Positions 3,201 through 24,866 are shown, counted from the first letter of the stretch. The stretch: DNA of 64,000 bases from Macrostomum hystrix (GCA_950097015.1 CATNEN010000025.1:8990001-9054000), one strand, 5' to 3'. Program-made: numbers and translations. The notes: a model not told the origin generated them from the letters alone.

Positions 3201-6200
3201 GCTACCTGTTATCCTGACTCTCATGTAACCTGTTATCCTGACTCTCATGTTACCTGTCATCCTGACTCTCATGTTACCTGTTATCCTGACTCTCATGCTA
3301 CCTGTTATCCTGACTCTCATGTTACCTGTTATCCTGACTCTCATGCTACCTGTAATCCTGACTCTCATGTTACCTGTTATCCTGACTCTCATGCTACCTG
3401 TTATCCTGACTCTCATGTTACCTGTTATCCTGACTCTCATGCTACCTGTTATCCTGACTCTCATGTAACCTGTTATCCTGACTCTCATGTTACCTGTTAT
3501 CCTGACTCTCAATCTGTTATCCTGACTCTCATGTAACCTGTTATCCTGACTCTCAATCTGTTATCCTGACTCTCATGTTACCTGTTATCCTGACTCTCAT
3601 GTTACCTGTTATCCTGACTCTCAACCTGTTATCCTGACTCTCATGCTACCTGTTATCCTGACTCTCAACCTGTTATCCTGACTCTCATGTTCCCTGTTAT
3701 CCTGACTCTCATGCTACCTGTTATCCTGACTCTCAACCTGTTATCCTGACTCTCATGCTACCTGTTATCCTGACTCTCATGCTACCTGTTATCCTGACTC
3801 TCATGTTACCTGTTATCCTGACTCTCATGCTACCTGTTATCCTGACTCTCATGCTACCTGTAATCCTGACTCTCATGTTACCTGTAATCCTGACTCTCAT
3901 GCTACCTGTTATCCTGACTGTCATGCTACCTGTAATCCTGACTCTCATGCTACCTGTTATCCTGACTCTCATGTTACCTGTTATCCTGACTCTCATGTTA
4001 CCTGTTATCCTGACTCTCATGCTACCTGTTATCCTGACTCTCATGCTACCTGTTATCCTGACTCTCATGTAACCTGTTATCCTGACTCTCATGTAACCTG
4101 TTATCCTGACTCTCATGCTACTTGTAATCCTGACTCTCATGCTACCTGTAATCCTGACTCTCATGCTACCTGTTATCCTGACTCTCATGTTACCTGTTAT
4201 CCTGACTCTCATGTTACCTGTTATCCTGACTCTCATGTAACCTGTTATCCTGACTCTCATGTAACCTGTTATCCTGACTCTCATGTTATCCTGGCTCACC
4301 TGTTATCCTGGCTCACCTGTTATCCTGGCTCACCTGTTATCCTGGCTCACCTGTTATCCTGGCTCACCTGTTATCCTGGCTCACCTGTTATCCTGGCTCA
4401 CCTGTTATCCTGGCTCACCTGTTATCCTGGCTCACCTGTTATCCTGGCTCACCTGTTATCCTGGCTCACCTGTTATCCTGGCTCACCTGTTATCCTGGCT
4501 CACCTGTTATCCTGGCTCACCTGTTATCCTGGCTCACCTGTTATCCTGGCTCACCTGTTATCCTGGCTCACCTGTTATCCTGGCTCACCTGTTATCCTGG
4601 CTCACCTGTTATCCTGGCTCACCTGTTATCCTGGCTCACCTGTTATCCTGGCTCACCTGTTATCCTGGCTCACCTGTCATCCATGCTCAGTCTGCAGGGC
4701 GGTGTCAACGCTGCCATCCGATGCCCACCTGTTGGCCGTGTCCGGCAAGTCGTTCCACCCGGCTCTGAACAGTTTCTGTCGCATCTTCAACGTCACCTGC
4801 GTCTTCCTCGACGCCCTGGAAGGTGAGAGAGTGCCAGACGACTGGCTGTACAATGGCATTCGCTTCTTCCCCGCTCCCGAGCTGCGCAGCCGGTCGATTT
4901 ATGAGTACATCACCTGGGCCATGTGGAGTAACCTTGTGGTGCTCTACTGCGATTTTCACAGTGAGAATATTTTTTAACAACGCTTTCGAGATGAGGGAGA
5001 TGAGGGAGAGATGAGACAGGAAAGAGATGAGACAGGGGAGAGATTAGACAGGGGAGAGATTAGACAGGGGAGAGATGAGACAGGAGGGGAGAGATGAGAC
5101 AGGAGGTGGAGAGATGAGGCAGGAGAGGGAGAGATGAGACAGGAGAGGGAGAGATGAGACAGGAGGGGGAGAGATGAGGCAGGAGAGGGAGAGATGAGGC
5201 AGGAGAGGGAGAGATGAGACAGGAGGGGGAGAGATGAGGCAGGAGAGGGAGAGATGAGACAGGAGAGGGAGAGATGAGACAGGAGGGGGAGAGATGAGGC
5301 AGGAGAGGGAGAGATGAGGCAGGAGAGGGAGAGATGAGACAGGAGGGGGAGAGATGAGACAGGAGGGGGAGAGATGAGACAGGAGAGGGAGAGATGAGGC
5401 TGGAGAGGGAGAGATGAGACAAGAGGGGGAGAGATGAGACAGGAGAGGGAGAGATGAGACACAGGGTGTCGGAGTTAGGGTGCTTTGTTGAGTAGCTTGG
5501 GTGTCGCATTTACCTGACCCCTTGCCCAAACCTGTCTGCAGACCTGGAGAGCATTCACAGTGTGTTCCACTATCCAATGGGTCCCGTGCTGTTCCGTCAT
5601 CTCGATCTGGACAACGCCACTAGCGCCCTGAATGTCATTCGACAGCTGAAACTGTCAACCATCAACAACTTCATCCTCGACATGCCGCACAATCAGATTC
5701 TAAAATTTCTTAAACTGGTGAGGTGCACAGAGAGTCAGGGATTTTTATCAAATTTCATTTAAAAAAACAAACTATTGCGTTAAACAATATTGCCTACAGG
5801 CAAACGAGGCCAATTTAAAAGGCTTGGCGAGAAGTTTTCTACTCATCCGAGAAGTGAGTCACAGATTGTTCGATATTTTGAAATTGTTGCCTTTTTAACT
5901 GAATCAAACTGTTACTAAATTGATAGGCAAATCAAAAGGCATGTTAGCTCGAAAATCGAGTCACATTGTTGTGAGTCACATCGGTTTGAGTCACATTGTT
6001 GTGAGTCACATTGGTATGAGTCGCATCGGTGTAAATGACCTTGAAAAGTCACCTTGGTTTGAGTCAACTAATAGGTGTGAAAAAAATTCCGGTGTGAATG
6101 ACCTTGAAATGTTCAGCTCGAAAAGAGCTTTCCAATTATTTCAAAAGCTGCGCACTGAACAGTTTTTGACGGACAGTTTGAACAAGTTCAGGTTGGCTGT

Positions 6201-9200
6201 CACTCAAGACCCTCCAAGCCCTGTTAATAATGAGCTTCTAGGAGCTCACAGGAAGCAGTCTCAATGGAACTTTCTCACTTCCGCAGATAAACAGCAGCTT
6301 CTTCCAGGAGCGAATGGCCGACGGAGTCTGGGCTGGAATGAACTTCACATCCCACCTGTTTGATGGAGTCAGCTTCATCAGCGATGGGCCAGGAGCCGTG
6401 AGGACTAATTATGCAGCTTTGTATATGTTGGGTGAATGGTAGAACAGTTGTTGTAGTTTATCGGTACCGTCGGCAGTTCGCCGACGCGGTAGTTCGGGTA
6501 CGGACCGCCCAAAGCTTGCCGGGGGAGGAGGGATGGGAAGCAGCGACCCTCGAGGCGTTCAGACACTCCGAGGAGAGACGGGATGGGCTTGGAGCGTACA
6601 GACACAGACAAGCCCGGCACAGGTGGATGCGCGAAGGCTTTGACTGCGAGCGGGTAGCCACTCGACAGCCCCAGAGAGAGGTGGATGACGGTCTGGAGGC
6701 GTACCGACGCTTCGCAGACTCGAGGGAAGACTCTGGAGGAGAAGGATGATGATGATGAGCTTTTGGCAGCAGCAGAGGTCGGGCAGAGGAACAAGGTTTG
6801 AGCACGGACAAATAAATAACTCGTTAATGCTTTTCTTACCGGGAGGGATCGAACGCTGCACTCATGGCAATTAGTGTAGCTCAGGCTGCGTAGTTTATTA
6901 TTGTATTGATTGTTCGCTTCTAACTCAGGGCAACGTTCTCACAATAGTACTCGGGAGGCGCGGGGGCTGGCCACGGGCAGCGCGCGCTAATAAATAACAG
7001 CGTGGGGTGGGGCGAGGGCATAGGGCTGGACGGGGTAGGGCTAAGCCACGCAGGGCTGGGGTGGGAGTAAACACACAAGGCTGAGAGCCGAGAGAGAGAG
7101 AGAAGGAGGCCGGCTAGCCAATCAGAAGTCGCCTTGGCGAGAGGCCTGATTGGACTAGCGAAGACGGCGCAGGGGGCAGCCAATGGGCGAGCGATAAACA
7201 ACGATAAAGGAGGGTGGCCTAAGCCGGGGCCGGGCAGAACTGGATTGAGCAGGTGGCCGGGGTGGAAGGGTTAGTGACGCAGGGGTCGGGGCAAGGTCAT
7301 TGTGAGACGCAGCTCACAACACAGTAGAAAGGGGTATTTGAAATATCCACATTTTTTCTTTTTTCTGTGTCTCCCAAAATATGCGACCAATGGCCACGAA
7401 AATGCAGAACACGGGCTAAAAGTTTCCACTCTATCCGATGAAACAGCTTCCAGAATCACAAAACATCGGCATCGTCGAGGTATTCACCGATCTCGTCGGG
7501 GTGTCTGTTGACGAAAGCAAAAAAAGATTGGCAGAGTCTTTCTACTCACAAAATTTCATCATCTAACCATGCAGGCTGTTATTGTTGAGAATTTTGTTTT
7601 GCTTTTACTGTTAGTTATTATATGATTGAATCAATAACGACTCGCCATAGAAGCTTATGCAGAGAAATGTTGGTTGGTCACCAGGGTCTTCGTGTCTTCG
7701 TATCTTCGGGATATTATGGTCTTTCGACTGTTAATTAGGGATTTTCAAGTTGGTATCGAGTTTCGTAGCGGGTTGGGAAAATACCACTATTTGCTATTTG
7801 CTAATTAGTACAACGCTGAGCAACAGGTAAATTCGCTACTTCTCATTTTGATAAAAGCATAAATAACATCTTTGTTTAATTCGAACTTTATTGGATAATT
7901 GGATTAATTTATTAATCTATTAATTGAAATAGTGCGGGTCTTTTGCTAGCCGATGACCGCCCTCATGAAAGATAGGAGTGTGGAAAACGACGATAGAGTC
8001 GGAGGTCGATCGCTGCTGCCGCGAGCTGTCGCAGAGAGGGATGACGAAGGGAGGGATGAAGGGAGAGATGAAGGGAGAGATGAGGCGGTACAAAGGATGC
8101 AAGTGAGTGGTCCTATTGGCCTCAGGCTGGCCAGTCCCACCCAACCCATAGGCCACAGGCATGACTGCCGTGCCCACCCCAAGCAGTGCTCGAAACCGGC
8201 TAAAAGTCTAAATAGATGTCGGACTACCCGCAAGCGAATAGGACAGGGCTAGATAGCCTACTGTCATCAGTAGCATGTTCGTAACTGACTCCTAACTTTG
8301 GTAGCAGTGGTCGACTCGGCCTAGGCTCTTGTCTTAGAAATGCGGAAAGGCTATCGGCAAAGCGGATAATGATCGAAGGTAGCGCCACCACCCAATGCGC
8401 CTACGTTGCCACCGCAGACATTTGGGAACTTGGGTCCCCGGAGCTCGCAGCTCCCAGTTTGTCACACAGATCTTAGACAAGCCGAAAAATAGAGCATTCT
8501 GTAACTTCCGTTTTAGACTAGGGTGAGCACCCCAGAATGGATCGAGTCACGCCTCACAAGGGGATTCCTGAAACTGCGCTACAGTGGTCTAGGAAGGTGG
8601 TACTCCGAACCCGAATGAGAAATCCATAGCCAGAATCCTACTCATGAGACATTAGACACATTCCGTACATTAGACTGCAGCCTACTCATTAGATAACTAG
8701 CAAGCCGATTCTGTGTGAGTTGAGGAGAACAGAGGCAGGAGAGATTAAGCTGAACACTGGCTGAGTGATTATGCAAGCAGGAAATTATTAGATCACGCCT
8801 CTCGCTCCCATGGCCGCGGTTGCGAAAGGCGGGGAAAAGAGGGAGAATTCAAATTGGCAAAGGAACTTGACGCATACACTGGAACCCGCCGAGAGAGTGA
8901 GGAAAGCCGGCCAAGGAATCCCCCACCTCGTAGGCAGAAATGCACACGCTACATCCCGCATTTAGCTCGCAAATCCCTAGCTCCATATTACTCTCATGCG
9001 TGCTCACAGTAGCCTTCTTGCCGCAGCTTTCAGCTCGGCCTCGCCAGAGCCCATTCCCCTAGTGAATTAGCCACTCATGATTGAGGGCTGTCTAATGATA
9101 CAATAAAGGGGAAATAACAGCATGATAGAAAGTGATTTAAATTGTTACTAAATTGCCTAATAGTTAAATGATTGGCGACTAAGATGAATAATAGTTTATT

Positions 9201-12200
9201 AGGCTAGAATCAAATCCCTGCCCTCGCCCCGATTGCCCACTAGCTAAGTAATAAATCCCTTAGGGATAGCAATAAGAGTCCGCTACGCGGGTTACTTATC
9301 TGATTGCTGACTGACTTCACTGCAGGCCGTCGATCTCGCGGGGGAATGCAAATGAACAGGGGAATAGGTGAGGAATTGCTGAGTGCAGTTGGCAAGGGGC
9401 CAGACTGCAGGGAGCTCAAGGCTCAATTTGGAGCGCACCCAAGGAGGTGGCTTGCGCTTAGGGGCACTAGCAGGTAGTTGCCTGCTGCTATGATCTGGAG
9501 CCTTAGGCTCAGGGACTAGGTGCTAGCCTAGAAGGGGGAGAGTCCACGGACCGAGTTCCGGGACCAGACAGGAAGGGGGTAGGTTTTAGTCCAGGGTGGA
9601 GGGAAGGTTCCCCTAGGGGCAGCGCAGCGCGCTCTCTTAAATAGTCCTGCAGCTCCGCCAACCTCGCATTCATCAAAATAACCCACATGCTCGCCGGCCT
9701 GTCAGCGAGGAATCGGGTCGGCATAATGCCACCCCAATTGCCCACTGAAGCGGCGGCGAGAATCGCCAGATGCCCCACTAGGAGCGTCTGCCGGCAGTCG
9801 GCCAATGATTGTGATCCCGCCGGGATATGGGAAGCGCAGGCGCCGACCTGCCTATAGTGTCGTTACATGTATCTAGAGGGGGAAAGGTCATAATCGAGCC
9901 CCGGCTCGGGTTACAGTAAAGAAGAGGGACATGAAGAATTAAAGCTCACTCTAAACGCATGAGTGCTCCCGACAATCTGATCGCGGTTTGGAGGGGAATT
10001 ATGACCTAAACTAGTCCATACAGTATTGCTATTTCCGCGATCAGTCACTCCTACAGGGGACTAGACAGATCCGAGACAAAGGGAATCGGCGGCTACTTAA
10101 TTCACCTCCGCCCCAAGTCTGGCCCTAAGATTAATGATGGTGTTCTGCGGCCAGCTGCTATGTGGGTCGCGATTATTAACTTGCTAAAAATGGAAAAATT
10201 TGGCTGGCTCACAACCCCACTCGATTCCGAAGTACACTCCACATCACACCGCCCTTGCTCACTTTCACGTAAGACACTTACGTGCTTACTGTTAGTAGTG
10301 GGGTGTCCCGCGAATCGAGGGGGCAAAAACTTACATTACCCTACTGCATACCGTAAAGAATCCTAAGAAGAAAACCGCTAGAGAAGAAATCCTAAGTTAT
10401 CGTACGTAACAATACTGCTATAAATAGATTTTGTGCGAGAGTGTAAAAGGTCGGCGCCCCTAGCGACTAAGGGATAGAGTCCTGAGGGGAGGTGGGTGCG
10501 CATTCCGGCTGAGTTAAGGTTGTTCTCGTTGCCCAGGGGTGCCGTGTCCCGGCTCGCCTTCTCCTCCAGGTGGCTGCAGCTGTCCCCGTCTTTCCCTGCC
10601 CGGCTTGGTCGCGGTTGCGCAATCCTGGGAGGCTCCGGCCGTTTTCCTCCTTAAGTCCGAGGGTCCGGCCGTGCTCTCACCAGGTGGCTCCAGATTGGCT
10701 GACCCGCTCTGCGTCCTCACCGATCCTGTTGCCGGGCGTTGGTAGCCTCTGATTCGCCGCGCGCTCCAGATGTTTCCGGCTGGCCGTGCCCGGGAATGTT
10801 CGCCGGGCCGGTTGCCTAGCCGTTGCGCGCGGCCCAATCGTCGCTGCAGCTGGTCGCAGCTGGGGAAACCGCTGCTCAGGCCGCTTGTGATGCTGTTGCC
10901 GGCCGAGGTGTCTCCTCACCGAAAAGGTCAGGGCCCCAACAACTAAACCGTTACTATGGGCCCCCTAAACTGGTTCTGCCCGGAATCCCCACTTTGCTCC
11001 CATGGGCTGGCGGTTAGACCGCCACGTCTCCCTAAATTAGCCCTATAAAAGCAAACTCTTGACGCCCCATTAACCTCAAGCCTGTTATCTCGCAATCAAC
11101 CTCCCGAACTGTCAGTAATCTATTTCTGCTATCAGCCCTACTAAGTCTCACATCCTCTGCGAATAAAACACAAGCGAGTGTTCCGTCTGCGTTTACCGCC
11201 TAAAGTTCCGCGTCTGACTCGTCTACTCCGCCCGCATAATGGCCCAGCAGCAGCCTGAAGGAGAGAGGTGAGTTATTACTTCTACTCGGCCCCCCCAAGG
11301 CCGGTTATTTAAGGATTATTGCGAGGGTTATTGCATAAGAATTAGAATAACGAAATCCCCCTTACCCACGGCACGCCTACTGATCCCCAAAAATCTGAAA
11401 TTGACCCCGACCCAATAAGGGGAAAACCCTTCCCCAGCCAAAGATTGATTAAATTGAGTTATTTGGGTTGCAATTGTCAATACTATTTTGTCCCCGCCTA
11501 ATCTGGCCACACCCTCCTTCCATTCCCAGCGATTACCTGCCCGGATTTGTAAATCCGCCTCGGCGCCGGGCCAGCTCAGGCGATCCCATTGCCTTATCAT
11601 TCGTGATGAGTAAGTTAGATGTTTTTTTCTGTCATACTCTCCCACCCAACTTGGGTTCCACTATTTGCGACTTCCCCCTACGAACCATCGCTGCCCGTTT
11701 ACTGAGCTACTCATCCACCTTACCCCTCCAGACATTAACGTGCCCGAAGGCCGCGAGGAGGACGTGGCCGCGATAGCCCTCGGCTTTATCCGGGGCCCAC
11801 TAGGCGCAGCTCTGGCAGTCGCCATGATCGCCGTGGCCCTTGTTCTGGGCTTCATCTCGTACTTTCTGTGAGAGCCACCCAGTCGCGCCACCTTCACTCC
11901 TACGACGCCCCGGCCCCCCTATCAGCACATGATCAGCCTCCGCACCCACACAGACTCATATACCACGACTGGTGCTAAATGAACTTTCTATGCATAACGA
12001 AATAAACATGCAAAAATCCCTGGCTCCTTTTCTTTTACGCCACCATTTGAAATATGAAAGAGGGCTCACTATTTTCACCCGTCTTCTTTCCTAGACGAAA
12101 CATTACTGCTCAAGTTTTACAACCGCCTAGTAACCGAAAAAACTAACTGATAGACTGTTAATGAGTTTTTGAAACGTCTGGAACCTTAATTCATACGATT

Positions 12201-15200
12201 TATTACTACCTAGGTACCTAGATTTGAACTCCCAGCTGCTAACTTCTGGCTCCTAAATAATGTTTCTTTTTGTCTTTTCTAGCCCTAACAAAAGAAAAAT
12301 TATCATTTTGAAATCTGTCGCTCATTGAAACAGCCAGATTGTCTCCCCTAGAATTTGAATACCCGACCCTACCGGCTTCTTGATTTACAACCGCCCACTC
12401 TTTAAACAAACATTAAGAAAAACTCCCGAAACATACCACCCCGCTCACTTTAGCGGGTTGGTATACCCCCTAAATAGAAGCCGGTATAGCTAAACTCCCG
12501 AAACCAAGCATAGAGAACATGTAAGATAAGCAAGTTTGCGAAAAGTAGGTGCGAACCCTAGTTTGCGGCAGTTATTACGAAAATATTTCATGCGAAAATT
12601 CGTACTAGGGGAGTTTCACCCCACTAAGTATGTTTTTGGATTTTGATTTGTTTATATGAGTTTTTAAGAGGGTTTGGCGCCGAGATGGCCTTTTTGATTT
12701 GAAACCGCCTTCCCTCCCTTAAAGAAACATAGAATTTCCCATGGCATACCACCCCGCTCACTTTAGCGGGTTGGTGCCCCTCCTAAGTTAGAAGTTGTCC
12801 TAAATTGAACTCCCACAGACCCACCAATATGAACAAGATAAGGCAAAGGTGCCATGCATGATGTGGTGCGAATAAAAGTAAAATGCTCTTTGAGAAAAGA
12901 AGGTGCATGCCCTAGATTGCTACAATTAGATAGGCATCTCATGCGAAAAAGTACTAGGGGAATTTCACCCCACTAGGTATGTTTTTGGGTTTCTGGCTAA
13001 ATTATAAGAATTTTTATGAGATTTTTGTGCCAAGGCGGCTTTGATGAAAAAGGAAGGCATGCACAATAGGAGAAAAGGAGCAAAAAGTGTAACAGAATGG
13101 GGGATCGCTTCCCCAACGAGGTCTCCAGTGGGGCTCGGTCGCCTAGCACGGCCGGGTGAGTGCTTCGGGGCACCCGCAGCGGGAGCTACCTTTCCCTAGC
13201 CTGGGTCGTGGCCGTTGGTATTTACCTGCGCAGCAGCGGACCTCAGGCGGTCGGCGAATGAGGCATATGATTCGCCTCGGTCCTGCCTCAGGTTGCGCCC
13301 GCTGAGGGGCCGGGCATAGGGGGTGCAGGCGCCGCTGAGGGCCTCGGTCAGGTCCTGCACGAACCGGAAATAGGTCACGCGGCGCGGCAGGGTCATCGCT
13401 TGGGTTAGGGGTTCACCGCCTAGGTGGGCCAGCAGGGTGAGGATTTTCTCCTCTTCTGTTTCCAAGCCCTCAGCCTCAACCTTCAGGTTAAACCGGCGCA
13501 GCCAGCGGGGAAAAGAGTCTGCTGCCGATTCGAATGGTTCCAGGGCAACTTTCACCCTGTGAGTTCTTGCTCGACGCGGCTCTAGACGCTCCATCAGGGA
13601 GGCTAGGCGCTCGATGGGGTCCCCTTGATTGGCGGCTGCAGCTGCTGCTGCCGCTGGGGGATCGGCGCGCGCTGCGGCAGCAGCGCGGCCTCTAGGTGGG
13701 CGGGGGGCGCCGATGGCCTCGACGACCTCATCCTCCTGGTCGGACATTTTCGGCCAAAAGAGAAAATGAGGGTTTTGCGAATTGAAAAGGGGTGTTTGTC
13801 GCTAATGCAACAATGGGGAAGGAGAGAAAGGGGAGGCACGGATCACGACCGGGGGTCGTGCGAGAGGGAAAGAGAAAGGCCTGAGTTGTCAAATCCAGCC
13901 CTAATTAATGGCGAGCAAATTCCTTATTCCTAGCAAACAATCCTACAGCAAAAAATGAGATCAAAGATCAATGAGAGAGAAAAAAAAGGCCCAGGGCCCT
14001 GGCTAGCTTTGCTTCCAGCCTTGGCTACCGACAACTGCTTGCGCGCACTTAAGTCTGGGACATAGAAGTCTAGGTTTTAACTTAGCACTCATTCAGCAAC
14101 CCTATAGCAGACTGTTACACTATAGGTACGGCGGGGCCAGTACTACTGCAAGCTGGCGCCTGCAGCAGCCTATCTCCCTACCGTGGAAAGTACGCGACTC
14201 AAAAAGTCATTCAAAGAAGGCTAATCCCCGATTCGCTCAGAGGGCCCTTCCCGGTTGGGATGGCCGGGGGCTTCGCCTCCGCGATTTACGAGGCTGGGGA
14301 TCCCAGGAATTATACATCTGAGACCTCGCTCGGTTAGGGGTCCGTGGCTTAGAGCCCGGTTTCTCCGTTTAGACCATCCCTCAGAGAGTTTCTTAGAAAA
14401 GACGCGCCGACCGAATTCTAGCCCATACTTGAAGTAGGCAGCTTCGAGAGGCGGGCACGGGGGTCGCTAGACCTCCCTCAAAGTCCCACCTCCCTAACTG
14501 TTCCCCACCAAAGTCAGACTTGGTCAAAGTTATGTGACACTTTCAAAATCAGGTACACGTAAGCAGGCCTGCATGCTACCCAAGAGAACCAATCCCCGGT
14601 GCTCGGCGAGTCATCGATTCCCGGCTGCATTGCCGGGGGCTCCCCTCGCTCGGTTAGAAGGCCGAACGGCGTTGCCCGGTCCCTCGTTAAGAATGGCCCC
14701 TCCCAGATCAGTCACGCGGGAAAACCCCACAGACAGTCCCTGACTCCTGCAGCAGCCACATAACCCGAAGACACTCTAGCATGAAGTCCGCTCACACAGC
14801 CTACTCTTAGTAGAAAGTCACTAATCGGAAATTTTGGAAATCCTAACAAAATCCTTACATTAAAGTCCGAATCAAATTGAAACTGTTCAAAGAAAATTAA
14901 TTGACAGTTACTCGAACTGAAGTCCAGTCTCTAGAGATAAGATTTAGGCGTACGGAAGATGAAATCTAGAAGAAGCCCTTACGGCTAACTACCACAGAAA
15001 TCTGCGGCGCTAATCTAACAATTGAAAAAAATTCAAGTTCGTTTCGCGCCCTTTCTAGATCCCACCTCGATGCCACCATTGAAATAGTGCGGGTCTTTTG
15101 CTAGCCGATGACCGCCCTCATGAAAGATAGGAGTGTGGAAAACGACGATAGAGTCGGAGGTCGATCGCTGCTGCCGCGAGCTGTCGCAGAGAGGGATGAC

Positions 15201-18200
15201 GAAGGGAGGGATGAAGGGAGAGATGAAGGGAGAGATGAGGCGGTACAAAGGATGCAAGTGAGTGGTCCTATTGGCCTCAGGCTGGCCAGTCCCACCCAAC
15301 CCATAGGCCACAGGCATGACTGCCGTGCCCACCCCAAGCAGTGCTCGAAACCGGCTAAAAGTCTAAATAGATGTCGGACTACCCGCAAGCGAATAGGACA
15401 GGGCTAGATAGCCTACTGTCATCAGTAGCATGTTCGTAACTGACTCCTAACTTTGGTAGCAGTGGTCGACTCGGCCTAGGCTCTTGTCTTAGAAATGCGG
15501 AAAGGCTATCGGCAAAGCGGATAATGATCGAAGGTAGCGCCACCACCCAATGCGCCTACGTTGCCACCGCAGACATTTGGGAACTTGGGTCCCCGGAGCT
15601 CGCAGCTCCCAGTTTGTCACACAGATCTTAGACAAGCCGAAAAATAGAGCATTCTGTAACTTCCGTTTTAGACTAGGGTGAGCACCCCAGAATGGATCGA
15701 GTCACGCCTCACAAGGGGATTCCTGAAACTGCGCTACAGTGGTCTAGGAAGGTGGTACTCCGAACCCGAATGAGAAATCCATAGCCAGAATCCTACTCAT
15801 GAGACATTAGACACATTCCGTACATTAGACTGCAGCCTACTCATTAGATAACTAGCAAGCCGATTCTGTGTGAGTTGAGGAGAACAGAGGCAGGAGAGAT
15901 TAAGCTGAACACTGGCTGAGTGATTATGCAAGCAGGAAATTATTAGATCACGCCTCTCGCTCCCATGGCCGCGGTTGCGAAAGGCGGGGAAAAGAGGGAG
16001 AATTCAAATTGGCAAAGGAACTTGACGCATACACTGGAACCCGCCGAGAGAGTGAGGAAAGCCGGCCAAGGAATCCCCCACCTCGTAGGCAGAAATGCAC
16101 ACGCTACATCCCGCATTTAGCTCGCAAATCCCTAGCTCCATATTACTCTCATGCGTGCTCACAGTAGCCTTCTTGCCGCAGCTTTCAGCTCGGCCTCGCC
16201 AGAGCCCATTCCCCTAGTGAATTAGCCACTCATGATTGAGGGCTGTCTAATGATACAATAAAGGGGAAATAACAGCATGATAGAAAGTGATTTAAATTGT
16301 TACTAAATTGCCTAATAGTTAAATGATTGGCGACTAAGATGAATAATAGTTTATTAGGCTAGAATCAAATCCCTGCCCTCGCCCCGATTGCCCACTAGCT
16401 AAGTAATAAATCCCTTAGGGATAGCAATAAGAGTCCGCTACGCGGGTTACTTATCTGATTGCTGACTGACTTCACTGCAGGCCGTCGATCTCGCGGGGGA
16501 ATGCAAATGAACAGGGGAATAGGTGAGGAATTGCTGAGTGCAGTTGGCAAGGGGCCAGACTGCAGGGAGCTCAAGGCTCAATTTGGAGCGCACCCAAGGA
16601 GGTGGCTTGCGCTTAGGGGCACTAGCAGGTAGTTGCCTGCTGCTATGATCTGGAGCCTTAGGCTCAGGGACTAGGTGCTAGCCTAGAAGGGGGAGAGTCC
16701 ACGGACCGAGTTCCGGGACCAGACAGGAAGGGGGTAGGTTTTAGTCCAGGGTGGAGGGAAGGTTCCCCTAGGGGCAGCGCAGCGCGCTCTCTTAAATAGT
16801 CCTGCAGCTCCGCCAACCTCGCATTCATCAAAATAACCCACATGCTCGCCGGCCTGTCAGCGAGGAATCGGGTCGGCATAATGCCACCCCAATTGCCCAC
16901 TGAAGCGGCGGCGAGAATCGCCAGATGCCCCACTAGGAGCGTCTGCCGGCAGTCGGCCAATGATTGTGATCCCGCCGGGATATGGGAAGCGCAGGCGCCG
17001 ACCTGCCTATAGTGTCGTTACATGTATCTAGAGGGGGAAAGGTCATAATCGAGCCCCGGCTCGGGTTACAGTAAAGAAGAGGGACATGAAGAATTAAAGC
17101 TCACTCTAAACGCATGAGTGCTCCCGACAATCTGATCGCGGTTTGGAGGGGAATTATGACCTAAACTAGTCCATACAGTATTGCTATTTCCGCGATCAGT
17201 CACTCCTACAGGGGACTAGACAGATCCGAGACAAAGGGAATCGGCGGCTACTTAATTCACCTCCGCCCCAAGTCTGGCCCTAAGATTAATGATGGTGTTC
17301 TGCGGCCAGCTGCTATGTGGGTCGCGATTATTAACTTGCTAAAAATGGAAAAATTTGGCTGGCTCACAACCCCACTCGATTCCGAAGTACACTCCACATC
17401 ATAATTTATTATTTAACGGAAAACTTGTTGGAACATTTTGGATTTCGAAGTATTAATTAGATGATGCCAGTCAGATACAATGTAAAATATTTATTGTAAC
17501 TTTCGCACCCTGCTACTGAAACCAGCAGTAAGGCTTGCACACTAATCCAACTCAAACAGCGACGCAACAGGACCAGCGCTCTGCAAGAGCTGCTGAATCT
17601 GGCGCGTGCCGATTGGCTGACACTGCCAACAGTCGCCTCGGCTGGTCGAGCCGCTGAGGACTTGGATAGCGACTGGATCCAGTGCCGCCAGGCCCTAAGC
17701 CGGATCCGCCCGAACTCTGGACAGTTTAGGGACTTGTTGAAGGCGAGTTCCGCTTGCTGTGCCGCTAATTTCTAAGAAATGTGGCTCTTCCGAAGTTTTT
17801 ATAGTAACTTGAGTGCGAGTCACATTGGTGTGAGTTACCTTGGTGTGAGTTACCTTGGTGTGAGTCTCCTTGGTGTGAGTTACCTTGGTGTGAGTCTCCT
17901 TGGTGTGAGTCTCCTTGGTGTGAGCAAGGACCACTAGTAGATAGTATCTACTTGAGTAGTCCGTGGGTGTGAGTCACATCGGAGTGAGTCTCCTTGGTGT
18001 GAGTTACCTTGGTGTGAGTCACCTTGGTGTGAGTCTCCTTGGTGTGAGTTACCTTGGTGTGAGTCACCTTGGTGTGAGTCTCCTTGGTGTGAGTTACCTT
18101 GGTGTGAGTCTCCTTGGTGTGAGTCACCTTGGTGTGAGTTACCTTGGTGTGAGTTACCTTGGTGTGAGTCTCCTTGGTGTGAGTCACCTTGGTGTGAGTT

Positions 18201-21200
18201 ACCTTGGTGCGAGTCACATTGGTGTGAGTTACCTTGGTGTGAGTTACCTTGGTGTGAGTCACCTTGGTGTGAGTCACCTTGGTGTGAGTTACCTTGGTGT
18301 GAGTTACCTTGGTGTGAGTCACCTTGGTGTGAGTTACCTTGGTGTGAGAAGTTTTAAGAAGTTTTACTGTGAAGCTTGTAAGTTGTGCATTGAATCAATC
18401 CAAATCTCTTTCACCTGCAGAAACAGATCGTGGATAAAATCGGAACGGTAGTGATCGATGGCAAGGAACACTATAACTTTTCGTTCAGCGTCAATCACAT
18501 GTACTCGGAGCAGGACCCGGAGGTAGGTATTGAGTTGGACAATGCACCGAGAAATTCGGAAATGCACAATCTTTCAGAAAAAGACATAACTTAAACATTC
18601 TGTAACATTATTTGTGTTCTTTTTCAGACCAAGAAGAACATTAAAGAGATGAAGGATGTAAAGATGCTTCTAGCAAATTTGCTTTCTTTCGTTTGCTATT
18701 TTCAAAGGCTTAAAGTGCATGCAAATTTTTCGCATTTTTCATTTCGTTTCTTAAAAGATTGACATTGAACACAAGTTAGCGCCGTTGGCATGCTTCGTTT
18801 TGAAAATCATTTACTATAAATAGCAATGCTTTGCCAATGCTTTGGGGAGAGATGAGACACGGGGAGAGATGAGACACGGGGAGAGATGAGACACGGGGAG
18901 AGATGAGACACGGGGAGAGATGAGACACGGGGAGAGATGAGACACGGGGAGAGATGAGACACGGGGAGAGATGAGACACGGGGAGAGATGAGACACGGGG
19001 AGAGATGAGACACGGGGAGAGATGAGACACGGGGAGAGATGAGACACGGCAGAGATGAGGCACAGGAGATAAGACCTGGGAGAGATGAGACACAGAGTGA
19101 AGAGGTTAGAGTGGGCCAGGGGCTGTGTAGAGTAGCCTGGGTGTTGCGTTTAACTCACCCCTTATGTAACGAGTTGCAAAATTGTTTTAGTTCGCGAGCT
19201 GGACTGCTCAGAGAGGCTACGTCATGGCATCAGCAGCCGGAAGCAGGCACAAAAGGCATTTTCGAGAATTCATGAACGAGCTAAACCTCACAGTGGTCAC
19301 CGTCATCGACCCGCCGTTTAGCTTCGAGCGTGACTTCGATGACAAAGGCCGATTGCTGCATGGCAATGATCGGTGGACCGGATTCTCAATTGAACTGTTT
19401 AAACAGGTGGCCATTGTACTCAATTTGACGTGAGCACTTTCAGATATCTATTCTGTATAATTGAGTACTCGTACCGTACGCTCCCAGTATATATGAGTCC
19501 AGTACCGTACACTCCCAGTATAGATGAGTCCAGTACCGTACACTCCCAGTATAGATGAGTCCAGTACCGTACGCTCCCAGTATAGATGAGTCCAGTACCG
19601 TACGCTCCCAGTATAGATGAGTCCAGTACCGTACACTCCCAGTATAGATGAGTCCAGTACCGTACACTCCCAGTATAGATGAGTCCAGTACCGTACACTC
19701 CCAGTATAGATGAGTCCAGTACCGTACGCTCCCAGCATAGATGAGTCCAGTACCGTACACTCCCAGCATAGATGAGTCTAGTACCGTACACTCCCAGTAT
19801 AGATGAGTCCAGTACCGTACACTCTCAGCATAGATGAGTCCAGTACCGTACACTCCCAGCATAGATGAGTCCAGTACCGTACACTCCCAGCATAGATGAG
19901 TCCAGTACCGTACACTCCCAGTATAGATGAGTCCAGTACCGTACACTCCCAGTATAGATGAGTCCAGTACCGTACGCTCCCAGTATAGATGAGTCCAGTA
20001 CCGTACACTCCCAGTATAGATGAGTCCAGTACCGTACACTCCCAGTATAGATGAGTCCAGTACCGTACACTCCCAGTATAGATGAGTCCAGTACCGTACA
20101 CTCCCAGCATAGATGAGTCCAGTACCGTACGCTCCCAGCATAGATGAGTCCAGTACCGTACACTCCCAGCATAGATGAGTCTAGTACCGTACACTCCCAG
20201 TATAGATGAGTCCAGTACCGTACACTCTCAGCATAGATGAGTCCAGTACCGTACACTCCCAGCATAGATGAGTCCAGTACCGTACACTCCCAGCATAGAT
20301 GAGTCCTGTACCGTACACTCCCAGCATAGATGAGTCCAGTACCGTACACTCCCAGCATAGATGAGTCCAGTACCGTACGCTCCCAGCATAGATGAGTCCA
20401 GTACCGTACACTCCCAGCATAGATGAGTCCAGTACCGTACACTCCCAGCATAGATGAGTCCTGTACCGTACACTCCCAGCATAGATGAGTCCAGTACCGT
20501 ACACTCCCAGCATAGATGAGTCCAGTACCGTACACTCCCAGCATAGATGAGTCCAGTACCGTACACTCCCAGCATAGATGAGTCCTGTAGCATTTACCGA
20601 ACGCAAAAAAGTACTCCGGCACTCGCACCTTCCAGCTACACAATCCGAGTGAGCTCAGACGGTCAGTTCGGCTCACCGATAGAAACAGACTCAGGTGAGC
20701 AGGTCTGGTCAGGAACTGTTGGCGACCTCATGGCTGGCACTGCGGATGTGGCCGTGGCCTCCTTAGTCATCACCTACGATAGAGAACGGGTGAGCACTAC
20801 AGGCAAATAGCTCTACTTTTAAGTAGTATCATATACTCATATTCTAAGATAGATAAAATAACAAATTGCTTGGACCATGCAACAATATACAGCCACAGCA
20901 ATTGCTCGGCGTTTCCAAAAATTATGTACAGCTGTTCGGTCCATGGACTGGACTGTAAACTGTAACTCATCCAAATTTCTTCCCAATAATTAAAATTAAT
21001 TGATTACACCTGCCCTAATTGGGCCAGATGTGCAGCCGGCAGCACAGCCGCAGCTATTTCGCTGCGCATCTGAAGGCTGCGTACGGCTGTTCAGTCCATG
21101 GACTGGGGGGACGCCACACCCACCTTCAATTATCCCAGCTAACGCTGGTTCCCATTTACCAGCTGGATGAAATAAAGCTACGCAGAGTTAAGTGTCTTGC

Positions 21201-24200
21201 TAAAGGACACAAATTGTTCAAGTGAGTCTGGAATCGAACCCCCGACCTTCAAGACGTGTGTCCAACGCCCTAACCACTATAGGCTACAACCTTTGATTCT
21301 TCCTTCTTCCCAAGCTATACACTGGTACCCATGGATACCCAATACTGGTACCCATGGATACCCAATACTGGTACCCAATTTAATATTTTTTTAAAAAAAA
21401 GGTGGCAACATAAGACCGATTTGAAAGCCAAGGGCCCCTAACTCACAATAAAAATGTAGGTGACCACCAAAGATGGAGACGATGTAGGCACATTCGGGTG
21501 ACATGCTGATGACTAAAAGGATTAGGCGATAAATTAAAAACGTTTATTGTACTTAGAAGTGACAAGCATTTACGCGATACCCATTGCTTACAACTGAGTT
21601 AACACCGAATCTTGTTGCTCACTGCTCGAGTAAGGTCGTGGACTTCACGACGCCTTACATGAGCCTGGGCCTGAGCGTGATCATGAAGAAGCCGGAGCAG
21701 CAGACAGACCCGCTGCAGTTCATGCTGCCATTCAGCGGTCGTGTATGGACCTGTATGTTATTAGCCTGGCTACTCACAAGCCTACTCATGCTAGTCTGTG
21801 CCAGACTGAGTCCGTACGAGTGGTATTCTCATAGCGACTGTGTGCCGGTGGTTGAGAACCAGTTTGGAGCACTGAACAGCATGTGGTTCACCATCGGCTC
21901 GCTCATGCAGCAGGGTGAGCTGCAGCTTTGCCATCCTGTTTGAGAATAGACTCAGCCTCTCAGACACCGCGCAGATGGAGACTTTGGCCGCTTCCCCGCA
22001 GGGTCCGACCTCGCCCCCAGAGCCTCCTCCACGCGGATGGTGGCCACCACATGGTGGTTCTTCACCCTGCTGCTCATCAGCTCATACACGGCTAATCTGG
22101 CTGCCTTCCTCACCACCAACCGACTGGGCACCATCGACAGCGTTGATGCCCTGGCCAGCCAGAGCAAGGTGAAATTCGGCTGCCCCACTGGAGGGGCAAT
22201 GTACAACTTCTTCAAGGTGAGTCCTGTGTGCTCAGCTTCTTCAAGGTGAGTCCTGTGTGCTCAGCTTCTTCAATGTGAGTCCTGTGTGCTCAGCTTCTTC
22301 AATGTGAGTCCTGTGTATTGAGCTTCTTCAGTTTGAGTCCTGTGTCCCAGAGTGCTCAAACTTTTTCAACGTAAATCAGCTTCTTCAGGTGAATCCTGTG
22401 TCCCATAGAGTTAAGCCACCTCAAAATAAAATTCTGCTCTAATCCCAGCTTTAATTCTATAAGAAATTTCATCAGGAGTCCTATCGTAAATCCCTGCGGG
22501 ATTCCTAATAAAATTCCCAGGAGGAATCCTGCTGAAATCCCAACAGAAATCACACCCAGCGATTCATCGGAAATTCTTGCGGTAGTTTTAGCGTAAGCCC
22601 TTATTTCGTTCAGTAATCCCACAAAGAATCCAAGCGGAAATCCCAACGGAAATCCCAACGGGAATCCCAGCGGTAATCCTAGCGGGAATCCCAACGAAAA
22701 TCCCTGCGGGAATCCCAAATGCAGTCCCAGCGGGAATCCCAAGGGTAATCCCAGTGGGAATCCCAACCGAGAATCCCAGAGCCGCTCTCCGCCGCCCGAT
22801 CGCAGAACTCGCGCATCTCGCTCTACCGCCGGATGTGGGACTCGATGCAGGCCTGGAGCGCCACCAACGAGTCCTTTGTGCGGAAGACCTCCGAGGGCAT
22901 TAGTCGGGTAAGACAGGGCGGCTACGCCTTCATCATGGAGTCCACGTTCAACAAGTACTACAGGGAGAGGGACTGCGAGCTCACCCAGATTGGCGGCCTC
23001 TTCAACCCCAGCAGCTACGCCTTTGCTGTGCCTCAGGGCAGTGAGTGACAACAAACTTTTTTATTAGGAATTTTTTGAGTCCGTCTTGAAAAAAATAAGT
23101 TACTGCAGATCCCACAGACAGTGAGTCACTCAAGATTCCATAGACGATGAGTCACTCCAGATCCCATAGACAGTGAGTCACTCCAGATCCCATAGACGAT
23201 GAGTCACTCCAGATCCCATAGACAATGAGTCACTCCAGATCTCATAGACAATGAGTCACTCCAGATCCCATAGACAATGAGTCACTCCAGATCCCATAGA
23301 CAATGAGTCACTCCAGATCCCATAGACAATGAGTCACTCCAGATCCCATAGACAATGAGTCACTCCAGATCCCATAGACAATGAGTCACTCCAGATCCCA
23401 TAGACAGTGAGTCACTCCAGATCCCATAGACAATGAGTCACTCCAGATCCCATAGACAATGAGTCACTCCAGATCCCATAGTCACCATAGACAGTGAGTG
23501 ACCTTAGATTACAGCAAAATGCAAGATTAGGAAAATTTGCCCGAAGATGTTCTGCTGCGGGACGAGCTGAGCGAAGTGATTCTGAAGCTGCACAAAGAGC
23601 AGTTCATTGAAGATCTGTCAGACGCCTGGATCAAGCGGTTCAACCAAACCGGGCCGCCCTGCAGCGAAGTTTCCGTTGACGCAGCACCATCCGGCACCCT
23701 CGATGTGGCGTCTTTTGGCGGAGTTTTTGTTGCCATGCTGGCTGGGCTGGCCATCGCTGTTGTGCTCTGCTTTGTGGAACTGCTCTGGCGCTGTGGCACC
23801 TTGGCGATGAGGACCCGGGTGAGAGACGGGTTTCGGGAGTCTTTCGGGAGACTTTTGGTCCTTCTGGCAATTTACTCTTTCGGAATTTTTATTCTCCCTT
23901 TTCAGCGAGTTGTTATAAAAAATACTAGGGCAAAAACCCTAATGGGAATCTGAACGGGAATACCAATGAAAATCTAAGCGGGAATACCAACGGATATCCC
24001 TGCGGAAATCCCAACGGAAATCCAGCGGGAATCCAAACGGAAATTTCAGCGGGGATCCCAACGGAAATCCAAGCGGTAATCCCAACGGAAATCCAGCGGG
24101 AATCCAAACAGAAATTCAGCGGCAATCCAAACGGAAATTTCAGCGGGGATCCCAACGGAAATCCAAGCGGTAATCCCAACGGAAATCCAGCGGGAATCCA

Positions 24201-24866
24201 AACGGAAATTCAGCGGGGATCCAAACGGAAATCCCAAGGAGTATCTGATCGTGAATTCCCATCCATTTCCCTCGTCCTCTTTTCAGCGCGTTCTGATTCT
24301 ATTTTTTTGTCATTTCCAGTCCTCTTTTCCCAGTGACCAATGGTCCTATTTTAAGAAATTATTTGATTAAAGGTGAATAATATAATTAATTAATAAAGAC
24401 GCTGTGGATACGGACGCATCTGTTGGAAAATAAGTTAGCTGTTGATCCACGTACTGATACCGAACGCAGGCAAACACACAGGGTGTGTATATCTGCCATG
24501 ACCTTCTCATCGTCTGGCAGTGCACACTCTCACTGCACCGCAATGGGAGGATTGCCGCTCCCTAACAATGAGTGTTGCCACCTCACGTCTTCCACGAACA
24601 CCTACCTGCAGCGTCCGTTTGGCGAGCTGTGCGTCGAGCAGCTACGCCTGGCCATCCGTCTGACTGCCAACCGAAAGACCGACGAGGAAAATAAGCCGCA
24701 GCCGCCGCGGCCGACTCTTCATGCTCAGCACTCGTTGCCGACGCCGACGATTTGCCGCGGCGCTCGATTTCCTTCGACTAGCGACAACAGCGGGGAGGAC
24801 TGGAGCGACCATGACGACTACGGAGCCGGCACAACGCCAGGAATCGTCGCGAGAAGCGGCTTGTGA
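162..24866 (+). CDS. Ionotropic glutamate receptor (AMPA/kainate-like architecture), gene A, multi-exon
   Basis: Exons read by hand: 162-303 (poly-Leu signal peptide; link to next exon uncertain), ~763-860, 4691-4960, 5542-5717, 6287-6397, 7423-7500, 17560-17742, 18421-18522, 18628-18657, 19191-19429, 20636-20789, 21635-21914, 22002-22216, 22806-23040, 23547-23818, 24612-24866. Phases are compatible from 4691 onward. Hallmarks: [27 protein letters not shown]1, [11 protein letters not shown] pore loop, [21 protein letters not shown]4 [12 protein letters not shown]. Confidence 0.93.
912..4283. repeat. 24-nt minisatellite (CCTGACTCTCATGTTACCTGTTAT) with 20-nt variants and a higher-order duplication
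   Basis: Direct reading; variant pattern recurs at +1408. Confidence 0.97.
4284..4690. repeat. 17-nt minisatellite CCTGGCTCACCTGTTAT
   Basis: Runs up to the exon acceptor; same unit at 57261-57710 in gene B. Confidence 0.97.
4990..5461. repeat. Purine-rich ~19-20-nt repeat (GAGATGAGAC core)
   Basis: Direct reading; core shared with 18844-19092 and 54815-55250. Confidence 0.93.
6449..7321 (-). mobile_element. Solo LTR (873 bp) in a gene A intron
   Basis: Termini TGTTGT...ACAACA flanked by 4-bp direct repeat CAGT (6445-6448, 7322-7325). GC-rich interior with CCAAT boxes (~7118-7185) and AATAAA on the minus strand (~6895). Confidence 0.8.
7925..10246 (-). repeat. 3' LTR (2322 bp)
   Basis: Matches 15080-17401 at every segment I compared; ORF-track translations in both copies are identical (7953/15108, 9509/16664). 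Confidence 0.92.
10247..10262 (-). other. Polypurine tract-like segment
   Basis: Minus strand ...GAGCAAGGGCGGTG immediately precedes the 3' LTR TG; imperfect purine run. Confidence 0.5.
11044..11050 (+). promoter_or_regulatory. TATA box candidate for the antisense gene
   Basis: TATAAAA about 190 nt upstream of ATG 11239. Confidence 0.5.
11239..11871 (+). CDS. Three-exon antisense gene inside the LTR element; 82-aa protein with C-terminal transmembrane helix
   Basis: Exons 11239-11267 (AG|gtgagt), 11530-11609 (ttcccag|, A|gtaagt), 11732-11871 (ccctccag|); phases 2 and 1 join in frame. TATAAAA at 11044, AATAAA at 12001. Product [82 protein letters not shown]. Confidence 0.72.
12001..12006 (+). 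terminator. Poly(A) signal candidate of the antisense gene
   Basis: AATAAA 130 nt after the stop, followed by U-rich sequence. Confidence 0.55.
12429..13010. repeat. Duplicated ~320-350-nt unit with conserved hairpin blocks inside the LTR element
   Basis: CATACCACCCCGCTCACTTTAGCGGGTTGGT identical at ~12433 and ~12746; GTACTAGGGGA(G/A)TTTCACCCCACTA at ~12602 and ~12951; spacers diverged. Confidence 0.8.
13196..13747 (-). CDS. gag: Short Gag (capsid-like) protein, 183 aa
   Basis: FPRWLRRF...[10 protein letters not shown]...[18 protein letters not shown] resembles Ty3/gypsy retrotransposon gag capsid motifs. Same strand as the PBS. Stops before any zinc knuckle. Confidence 0.75.
   Translation of the reverse strand: MSDQEDEVVEAIGAPRPPRGRAAAAARADPPAAAAAAAANQGDPIERLASLMERLEPRRARTHRVKVALEPFESAADSFPRWLRRFNLKVEAEGLETEEEKILTLLAHLGGEPLTQAMTLPRRVTYFRFVQDLTEALSGACTPYARPLSGRNLRQDRGESYASFADRLRSAAAQVNTNGHDPG
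15059..15078 (-). other. Primer-binding site, tRNA-Leu-like
   Basis: Minus strand TGGTGGCATCGAGGTGGGAT directly after the 5' LTR; resembles the tRNA-Leu-type PBS TGGTGGCAGCGGTGGGAT with a small insertion. Confidence 0.7.
15080..17401 (-). repeat. 5' LTR (2322 bp)
   Basis: Minus strand starts TGATGT and ends ATTTCA, followed after 1 nt by the PBS. Confidence 0.92.
17812..18347. repeat. 15-nt minisatellite TGGTGTGAGT(T/C)ACCT, two blocks
   Basis: Direct reading. Confidence 0.95.
18844..19092. repeat. 17-nt repeat GGGGAGAGATGAGACAC
   Basis: Direct reading. Confidence 0.95.
19465..20590. repeat. 31-nt minisatellite AGTACCGTACACTCCCAG(T/C)ATAGATGAGTCC
   Basis: Direct reading. Confidence 0.96.
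21003..21290 (-). mobile_element. tRNA-derived SINE, family 1 (CORE-like central block)
   Basis: A-box TAGCCTATAGTGG, B-box GGTTCGATTCC, then TGTGTCCTTTAGCAAGACACTTAACTC; related copies elsewhere in the window. Confidence 0.75.
22217..22350 (+). repeat. 29-nt repeat of the exon/intron junction (GTGAGTCCTGTGTGCTCAGCTTCTTCAAG)
   Basis: Starts exactly at the donor; longer homologous array at 49790-50175 in gene B. Confidence 0.93.
23110..23500. repeat. 26-nt minisatellite GACAATGAGTCACTCCAGATCCCATA
   Basis: Direct reading. Confidence 0.95.

What the first reader, a model, noticed from the sequence alone, without database searches (positions are those of the whole stretch)
11044..12006. Intron-containing antisense gene for a small tail-anchored membrane protein carried inside an LTR retroelement
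Seen: on the strand opposite to gag there is a TATA box (11044), ATG 11239, two introns with consensus donors (gtgagt, gtaagt), pyrimidine-rich CAG acceptors and a CTAAT branch-like site (~11497), phases that join into one 82-aa frame ending in a ~25-residue hydrophobic helix, and AATAAA at 12001. The ORF track misses it because it is spliced. Established: introns survive retrotransposition only if antisense to the genomic RNA, which is the orientation here. Inference: a self-contained accessory gene of the element (membrane anchor, particle targeting, or anti-silencing factor) or a captured host gene; I do not recognise the family.
Basis: partly seen in the sequence, partly recalled or inferred. 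Interest (0 to 1): 0.88.

Follow-up and report, generated by a model that had tools for sequence, protein, structure and literature searches.

The report
Backwards spliced membrane gene in retrotransposon
A young, pol-less jumping gene, likely in an animal, carries a backwards three-exon gene predicted to make an 82-residue membrane-anchored protein; diverged relatives keep its splice signals and reading frame, so it is likely a real accessory gene, in a layout already known from plant and fungal elements but with an unusual product.

Summary
Observation confirmed. A 9.5-kb LTR element (two identical 2322-bp LTRs, 4-bp target duplication, truncated gag, no pol) lies on the minus strand. On the plus strand, between gag and the 3' LTR, TATA box, start codon, two GT-AG introns and AATAAA give an 82-codon frame ending in a transmembrane helix. 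A strict model of this kind arose in 0 of 2000 shuffles (criteria set after the fact). Contigs of four public runs (one study) hold diverged relatives that match only exon 2, its donor, the second acceptor and the start of exon 3; 12 of 18 differences fall on third codon positions of the predicted spliced frame (P=0.0004). The gene is therefore likely real and selected. Splicing, expression and function are not shown, no protein homologue was found, and an abundant sibling form replaces exons 2-3 with 149 other bases. Best reading: a trans-acting, tail-anchored accessory protein of the element family; a captured host gene is not excluded. Antisense extra genes are known (Grande, Retand, Boty brtn), and this scan found spliced ones before on other DNA. 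New here: a membrane micro-protein in a non-autonomous, probably animal element. It fails the sORF2/FAST fusogen criteria.

The parts
7921..7924 (.). Target-site duplication, left copy (TAAT)
   Evidence: same 4 letters at 17402-17405
7925..10246 (-). 3' LTR of the element, 2322 bp, TG...CA
   Evidence: identical to 15080-17401
10247..10266 (-). Polypurine-tract-like stretch (16 of 20 purines) next to the 3' LTR
   Evidence: function inferred from position
10500..10950 (.). GC-rich (66%), CpG-rich stretch upstream of the TATA box; likely non-coding promoter region
   Evidence: four 1-nt deletions in sibling contigs at 10646-10765 (table 4)
11044..11049 (+). TATA box of the antisense gene (predicted)
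11239..11267 (+). Coding part of exon 1 (9 codons + 2 nt), good Kozak context
   Evidence: likeness to sibling contigs resumes at 11238/11239 after a diverged 5' UTR (table 5)
11268..11529 (+). Intron 1, 262 nt, GT-AG, branch-like CTAAT at 11498
   Evidence: GC 46% against 57-62% in exons
11530..11609 (+). Exon 2, 80 nt; basic patch with an R-R-x-S motif
   Evidence: relative matches 11557-11616 with 8 differences in 60
11610..11731 (+). Intron 2, 122 nt, GT-AG, branch-like site about 11702-11706
   Evidence: relatives keep the donor and the last ~33 nt and diverge between
11732..11871 (+). Coding part of exon 3: amphipathic helix running into a C-terminal transmembrane helix, stop at 11869-11871
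   Evidence: relatives match 11699-11768 (9 differences in 70) and 11729-11768
12001..12006 (+). Polyadenylation signal AATAAA with T-rich tract downstream (predicted)
13196..13747 (-). gag-like ORF, 183 aa, ending shortly after the capsid major-homology-like motif; no zinc knuckle, no pol behind it
   Evidence: 36% identical to P0001, E 3e-8; P0001 is 340 aa with Retrotrans_gag E 7e-4 and zf-CCHC E 0.003, both below Pfam's curated cut-offs
15061..15078 (-). Primer-binding-site-like stretch beginning TGG one base from the 5' LTR
   Evidence: likeness to a tRNA-Leu 3' end is recalled, not tested
15080..17401 (-). 5' LTR of the element, 2322 bp
17402..17405 (.). Target-site duplication, right copy (TAAT)

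Best explanation
This is a three-exon gene lying antisense inside a non-autonomous LTR retrotransposon, likely a selected accessory gene of the element family, predicted to make an 82-residue tail-anchored membrane protein that would act in trans as a membrane-bound adaptor for the element's particles. Shown: the element's anatomy, the open spliced frame, the C-terminal hydrophobic helix, and relatives whose likeness is confined to exons and splice signals. Inferred: transcription from its own internal TATA promoter; survival of the introns because the packaged minus-strand RNA reads them backwards; post-translational insertion into the ER or nuclear envelope (long, very hydrophobic tail without basic residues behind it, by established rules for tail-anchored proteins); about 45 cytosolic residues with a basic patch and a kinase-type R-R-x-S motif (motif recalled). 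Least certain: that its job is to tether Gag or particles to that membrane. Being a protein that works in trans, it can be lost from many copies, as pol has been.
For: Anatomy and frame. Chance: 0 of 2000 strict, 0-121 of 500 by looser rule sets. Relatives in all 4 of 4 runs of one study match only 11557-11616 and 11699-11768 out of 11400-12090, that is exon 2 with its donor and the branch/acceptor with the start of exon 3, and diverge at once inside intron 2. In the two alignable loose ends (50 exon bases) 12 of 18 differences are at third codon positions, 4 at first, 2 at second (Fisher P=0.0004; positions counted by hand), with no indel; the two exons are in different genomic frames, and the bias follows the frame that splicing predicts in each. 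Sibling likeness resumes at the start codon after a diverged UTR, and the two best-supported indels near exon 1 (11278, 11290) are in the intron. Element-borne rather than host gene (weak): the relatives' contigs have depths 7.5-25 while the host flank at 7800-7922 has about 0-4 by my arithmetic on bin 1 (the tool warns that depth is no copy number); no cellular homologue was found. Precedent for position and own promoter: Grande gene23 and others (PMC7264820).
Against: An abundant sibling form joins 11350 to 12099 with 149 other letters in all 4 runs (table 5), so exons 2-3 are not needed in cis and may be a minority cargo. All comparative data come from one study, and the near-identical 807-nt contig may be this DNA's own source; its single difference (11780) changes a residue in exon 3. 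The relatives' pieces are 56-350 nt long and are not shown to lie inside an element. The 5' third of exon 2 is only 8 of 27 identical in the relative (near random; third-position P=0.15), so its in-register acceptor is only suggestive. A minus-strand frame sharing third positions is open across exon 3 (85 codons, no Pfam match), though closed in exon 2. An AATAAA at 11162 lies in the predicted 5' UTR. No homologue or family points to any function; known antisense products are nuclear or DNA-binding.
Confidence: 0.5

Rival explanations
1. A small host membrane gene (a regulin-like or other tail-anchored micro-protein) was captured with its promoter and introns, in antisense, and now hitch-hikes; the diverged relatives are host paralogues and the selection acted on them, not on the element copy.
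For: The gene is self-contained (promoter, introns, polyA signal); an abundant sibling lacks exons 2-3; the relatives are not shown to be inside elements; LTR-mediated capture is described in animals (PMC5131818 passages).
Against: The captures described there are intronless retrocopies of mRNA; siblings share the TATA region, exon 1 and the donor; no cellular homologue among 34 candidates of 46-149 aa, in Pfam or the PDB; relatives' depth exceeds that of the host flank (weak).
Confidence: 0.2
2. An element-borne effector aimed at the host rather than at the particle: a small membrane helix that oligomerises or binds a host pump, channel or stress/apoptosis protein and so favours cells that carry the element.
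For: Six small-x3-small motifs along the helix suit helix packing; the basic, kinase-type motif in exon 2 lies in the best-kept 33 nt (1 difference); diverged variants and a replaced form suggest a variable slot.
Against: No family match; small-x3-small motifs are expected in any Ala/Gly-rich helix; no partner or antidote gene was found in the element.
Confidence: 0.2
3. A cell-to-cell transfer factor working like sORF2/FAST fusogens.
For: Similar size and a single transmembrane helix with an amphipathic stretch before it; Env-less elements use such proteins (10.1101/2025.03.14.642691, sections 7, 8).
Against: No N-myristoylation motif, no cytoplasmic tail and no polybasic patch behind the helix; antisense and spliced, whereas sORF2 is sense and unspliced.
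Confidence: 0.05
4. Chance signals in non-coding DNA; the conserved patches reflect RNA elements of the genomic strand.
For: Loose three-exon frames arise in 121 of 500 shuffles; exons 2-3 are missing from an abundant sibling.
Against: Full model 0 of 2000 and 0 of 500; third-position bias P=0.0004 in two different genomic frames; the best-kept exon-2 stretch folds no better than shuffles on either strand (z 0.27 and 1.02).
Confidence: 0.05

Closest known systems
Antisense additional ORFs between pol and the 3' LTR (aORF-3R): maize Grande gene23, rice RIRE2, Silene Retand, bean PvRetro13 (PMC7264820; PMC11963269)
   Same: Antisense to gag, in the 3' internal region, apparently with its own internal promoter; no homologue outside the element.
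   Different: Those are plant elements, with long ORFs and nuclear or DNA-binding products (TRP28, SMC-like); here a probable animal host, two introns, an 82-aa tail-anchored product, and no pol.
brtn of Boty-like Ty3/gypsy elements of Botrytis and Sclerotinia (Zhao et al. 2011; title seen in reference lists, paper not held; its splicing is recalled)
   Same: Antisense extra gene in the same slot, reported as spliced (recalled).
   Different: Fungal, autonomous elements; product not compared here; no evidence of homology.
TR-GAG / LARD non-autonomous LTR retrotransposons (definitions in PMC6022998 passages)
   Same: Long LTRs, gag only, no RT, RNase H or integrase; identical LTRs show recent movement, presumably in trans.
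   Different: Defined for plants; the gag here is itself cut short, and the element carries an extra gene.
sORF2 of MDG1-group retrotransposons / FAST proteins (10.1101/2025.03.14.642691)
   Same: Small single-pass membrane protein encoded by an Env-less LTR element.
   Different: sORF2 is sense, unspliced, upstream of gag, with a central helix, myristoylation motif in most members and a polybasic tail; none of these holds here.
Antisense genes of complex retroviruses (HTLV-1 HBZ, named in PMC11963269; HIV-1 ASP, recalled)
   Same: Antisense accessory gene near the 3' end; HBZ is spliced and ASP hydrophobic (both recalled).
   Different: HBZ is nuclear and driven from the 3' LTR; here the predicted promoter is about 800 nt inside the internal region; no sequence link tested or expected.

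Membership tests
LTR retrotransposon | Two LTRs bounded TG...CA with a short target-site duplication | tested here: met
   2322 bp, identical, 4-bp TAAT duplication
LTR retrotransposon | PBS next to the 5' LTR and PPT next to the 3' LTR | tested here: met
   TGG-starting stretch one base from the LTR; 16 of 20 purines at the other end. The priming tRNA was not identified by a call.
LTR retrotransposon | gag | tested here: met
   E 3e-8 to a 340-aa protein with weak Retrotrans_gag and zinc-knuckle matches; truncated
Ty3/gypsy superfamily | pol with domain order PR-RT-RH-IN | tested here: inconclusive
   No pol in this copy: longest other frame in the internal region 133 aa, none with a retroelement domain; gypsy-like only by the gag relative's sub-threshold Pfam match
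TR-GAG-type non-autonomous element | GAG (or GAG+protease) only, no RT, RNase H, integrase | tested here: met
   definition from PMC6022998, a plant scheme
Antisense aORF-3R | Antisense ORF in the 3' internal region | tested here: met
   between gag and the 3' LTR
Antisense aORF-3R | Transcribed from its own internal promoter | not testable with these tools
   TATA box and GC-rich upstream stretch only; no run on record as RNA
Antisense aORF-3R | Present and conserved in most copies of the family | tested here: inconclusive
   Exon 1 and donor shared by siblings, exons 2-3 replaced in an abundant form; diverged relatives show coding conservation
sORF2/FAST-like fusogen | 60-210 aa with a single transmembrane helix | tested here: met
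   82 aa, one hydrophobic helix
sORF2/FAST-like fusogen | N-terminal MGxxxS/T myristoylation motif | tested here: not met
   second residue is Ala; criterion
sORF2/FAST-like fusogen | Cytoplasmic C-terminal tail with polybasic patch after the helix | tested here: not met
   the helix runs to the stop codon; criterion
Tail-anchored membrane protein | Single hydrophobic helix at the very C-terminus, no N-terminal signal peptide | tested here: met
   hydropathy 2.7 at the C-terminus, polar N-terminus; sequence-level only
Tail-anchored membrane protein | Post-translational insertion with N-terminus in the cytosol | not testable with these tools
   needs cell or in-vitro insertion assay

The most novel reading that the evidence does not exclude
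Animal LTR retrotransposons of this lineage carry a hitherto undescribed class of accessory factor: a spliced, antisense-encoded tail-anchored micro-protein, exchanged like a cassette between subfamilies and kept even in copies that have lost pol, which docks particles on an internal membrane or modulates a host membrane protein. Such genes would be invisible to ORF-based annotation and could be widespread.
Probability: 0.25. Interest if true: 0.75.

Novelty: new variant of a known kind. Interest (0 to 1): 0.5.

Why it matters
The functions of antisense extra genes in LTR retrotransposons are an open question, and those described are plant or fungal and mostly nuclear. A selected, spliced, membrane-anchored micro-protein in a probably animal element widens the known tool kit of retrotransposons towards the small membrane accessory proteins of complex retroviruses, and shows that six-frame ORF screens (such as the one used for sORF2-like proteins) would miss a whole class. 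It is small and easy to express, so its location and partners can be tested directly. Because the element lies antisense in a host intron, the cargo gene's acceptors and polyA signal face the host transcript and could act as an exon trap.

Tried and rejected
No whole genome is held for this window, so copy number and host paralogues could not be counted. RNA: no RNA holder listed; the four runs are of unrecorded kind and were laid as contigs, which kept both introns and showed no splice joint; this is no evidence on expression. Protein searches for exon 3: 0 of 34 candidates at E<=10; Pfam only a weak transmembrane-type hit, E 0.41; exon 2 none; PDB none; metagenome contigs 0 of 594 pattern matches confirmed; viral contigs 1 of 112 (L001), rejected as a shadow frame opposite a phage head gene. 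Only single exons were searched, never the whole 82-aa product, which lowers sensitivity. gag: none among 7999 and 1074 candidates, 1 hit in 1.84 billion representatives, 0 of 20 viral and 0 of 212 metagenome stretches; single-sequence fold too poor to search (pLDDT 41). The ESM Atlas gave no answer. Rfam: nothing at E<=1 in 7800-17500. A nested DNA transposon around the gene: no terminal inverted repeats. RNA structure as the cause of conservation in exon 2: not supported. A single helix was not sent to fold search, and no complex was predicted. Papers: searches found no report of a spliced antisense tail-anchored gene in an animal LTR element; the library lacks most subscription journals, the brtn paper was not held, and supplements were not read (those of the sORF2 preprint are closed and list further small membrane ORFs).

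Full report
Setting. The window is repeat-rich eukaryotic DNA. Exons of an ionotropic glutamate receptor gene lie on the plus strand downstream of the finding (Lig_chan E 1e-11 and 6e-18; Lig_chan-Glu_bd E 0.002); upstream exon-like stretches at about 5540-5717 and 6250-6400 look like its N-terminal part by eye but gave no Pfam support. The channel motifs are of the animal type (recalled), so the host is probably an animal. No whole genome is held.

The element. Positions 7925-10246 and 15080-17401 are identical 2322-bp repeats that begin TG and end CA, flanked by TAAT on both sides. On the minus strand a TGG-starting stretch follows the right repeat and a purine-rich stretch precedes the left one, which fixes the element's direction as minus. 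The only retroelement frame in the 4833-nt interior is 13747-13196 (183 aa). It has one relative among 1.84 billion representatives, P0001 (36% identity, E 3e-8), a 340-aa protein with weak Retrotrans_gag and zinc-knuckle matches below Pfam's cut-offs. The window's gag stops at about residue 173 of that relative's 340. No other frame carries a retroelement domain. So this is a very young, non-autonomous, gag-only element, of the TR-GAG type by the plant definition (PMC6022998 passages); its superfamily cannot be fixed without pol. Contigs in 2 of 4 runs have 1919 letters in place of 13090-13295, so longer forms exist.

The gene model. TATAAA 11044, first downstream ATG 11239 in good context, donors at 11268 and 11610, acceptors ending 11529 and 11731, stop 11869-11871, AATAAA 12001 with a T-rich tract behind. 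Exons of 29, 80 and 140 nt give 82 codons. Exons are 57-62% GC, introns 46-49%. The last 25 residues are uncharged with hydropathy up to 2.71; exon 3 folds as one helix over residues 7-44, pLDDT 88, amphipathic at its start.

Chance. A strict rule set finds exactly one model in the real interior and none in 2000 dinucleotide shuffles, both strands. Looser rules give some three-exon frame in 121 of 500 shuffles, with a transmembrane stretch in 5, with TATA and polyA signal in 6, and with all three in 0. The rules were written after seeing the gene, so these figures are optimistic.

Relatives. Four public runs of one study and one organism hold the stretch; their kind is not on record. One contig of 807 nt covers 11322-12128 with one difference and may be this DNA's own source. 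Laid at 80% likeness on 11400-12090, all 4 runs also hold diverged pieces that match only 11557-11616 (8 differences in 60; 11557-11589 in one run) and 11699-11768 (9 in 70), and 3 of 4 runs hold a further piece at 11729-11768. These are exon 2 with its donor, and the branch site, acceptor and start of exon 3. Right after the donor the relative diverges. I compared the loose ends with the window by hand: over 11590-11609 and 11769-11798 there are 18 differences in 50 exon bases, 12 at third codon positions, 4 at first, 2 at second (Fisher one-sided P=0.0004; each stretch alone 0.022 and 0.012); 7 codons changed silently, 5 changed residue, no indel. Exons 2 and 3 sit in different genomic frames, so the bias confirms the splice phase of intron 2. 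A third loose end (11530-11556) is only 8 of 27 identical (P=0.15); it has a CAG exactly in register with acceptor 1 and no stop, which is suggestive only; with it the total is 20 of 37 (P=0.0003). These stretches are all the loose ends inside exons; none was dropped. Limits: one study, 77 bases, hand counts, and the pieces are too short to show that they lie in an element.

Siblings. Across the element the contigs show many diverged siblings. Their likeness lapses over the 5' UTR (11092-11238) and resumes at the start codon; the best-supported indels near exon 1 are in intron 1; the GC-rich stretch upstream of the TATA box takes 1-nt deletions and is non-coding. In all 4 runs a deep contig joins 11350 to 12099 with 149 other letters: an abundant form keeps promoter, exon 1 and donor but not these exons 2-3. 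Whether the 149 letters hold another exon is unknown. This argues that the gene is not needed in cis, and fits either a trans-acting factor lost from freeloading copies or a minority cargo.

How it likely works. Shown: position, frame, helix, conservation pattern. Inferred from established knowledge: the packaged RNA is the minus strand, on which plus-strand splice and polyA signals are silent, so the gene is copied whole; a separate plus-strand mRNA would be spliced and translated; a C-terminal, strongly hydrophobic helix with no basic residues behind it typically goes to the ER or nuclear envelope after translation (recalled rule). That leaves about 45 cytosolic residues with a basic patch and a kinase-type motif in the best-kept part of exon 2. 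I commit to a membrane-bound adaptor serving the element family in trans, most simply by tethering Gag or particles (0.5 for the whole reading; about 0.9 that the gene is real; about 0.7 that it is element-borne). Rivals: captured host gene (0.2), host-directed membrane effector (0.2), fusogen (0.05), chance (0.05).

What is known. Antisense extra ORFs between pol and the 3' LTR are described in Grande, RIRE2, Retand, PvRetro13 and Boty; gene23 of Grande has its own promoter and a nuclear product; functions are unknown (PMC7264820, main text read in parts 1-2 of 3; PMC11963269 passages). brtn is named in PMC8365987 (passages); the original paper was not held and its splicing is recalled. sORF2 of MDG1 elements is a small membrane protein, but sense, unspliced, with a polybasic tail and mostly a myristoylation motif (10.1101/2025.03.14.642691: abstract and sections 7, 8, 50); this protein fails those features. 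Bdelloid elements carry sense ORF3s with transmembrane regions (PMC5408684 passages). LTR-mediated capture in animals gives intronless copies (PMC5131818 passages). Passages of PMC8220671 repeat the plant picture; PMC12477816 and PMC12801592 (no hits) added nothing. Ten searches showed no report of a spliced antisense tail-anchored gene in an animal LTR element; the library is incomplete and no supplements were read.

Earlier notes of this scan (unchecked AI notes) describe spliced antisense genes in the same slot of many fungal and some other elements, with zinc-cluster, protease or transposase-like products, some called swappable; none had a membrane micro-protein among those listed, and none matched this sequence or genome. 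They lowered my estimate of how new the layout is.

Verdict. Real feature, likely a functional gene; a new variant of a known kind. Interest 0.5: the architecture is known, the product class and host are not, and function is untested.

Noticed in passing
window 7925-17401 within the host gene (about 5540-24870): The element lies antisense in what appears to be an intron of a plus-strand glutamate receptor gene, so the cargo gene's acceptors and AATAAA are in the host's sense direction and could trap or end host transcripts.
   Followed up: partly
window 12432-12473 and 12745-12786; 12602-12643 and 12951-12992: Two duplicated 42-nt units behind gag; the first folds into a stable hairpin on the element's strand (z -3.66, 1 of 200 shuffles as good): candidate packaging or export signal.
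   Followed up: partly
window 10419 and 11162: A second plus-strand TATAAA and an AATAAA inside the predicted 5' UTR; they could define a separate upstream non-coding transcript.
   Followed up: no
window 9195-9202 and 9637-9643 (and the same places in the other LTR): Minus-strand TATA-like and AATAAA signals suggest R of about 430 nt and an unusually long U5 of about 1.25 kb; unverified.
   Followed up: no
window 13089-13296: Sibling contigs of 2628 nt in 2 of 4 runs carry 1919 letters here: too short for a whole pol, perhaps a gag or gag-protease form.
   Followed up: no
window 48488-52220 against 19272-23823: A second, inverted glutamate-receptor paralogue, with exons up to 96% identical: recent duplication or gene conversion.
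   Followed up: no
whole window: Many stretches between exons hold their own minisatellite arrays (77 rows).
   Followed up: no
L001 4133-7890: Ordinary phage head module (capsid, head-tail genes by eye); the match that fetched it is a shadow frame.
   Followed up: yes
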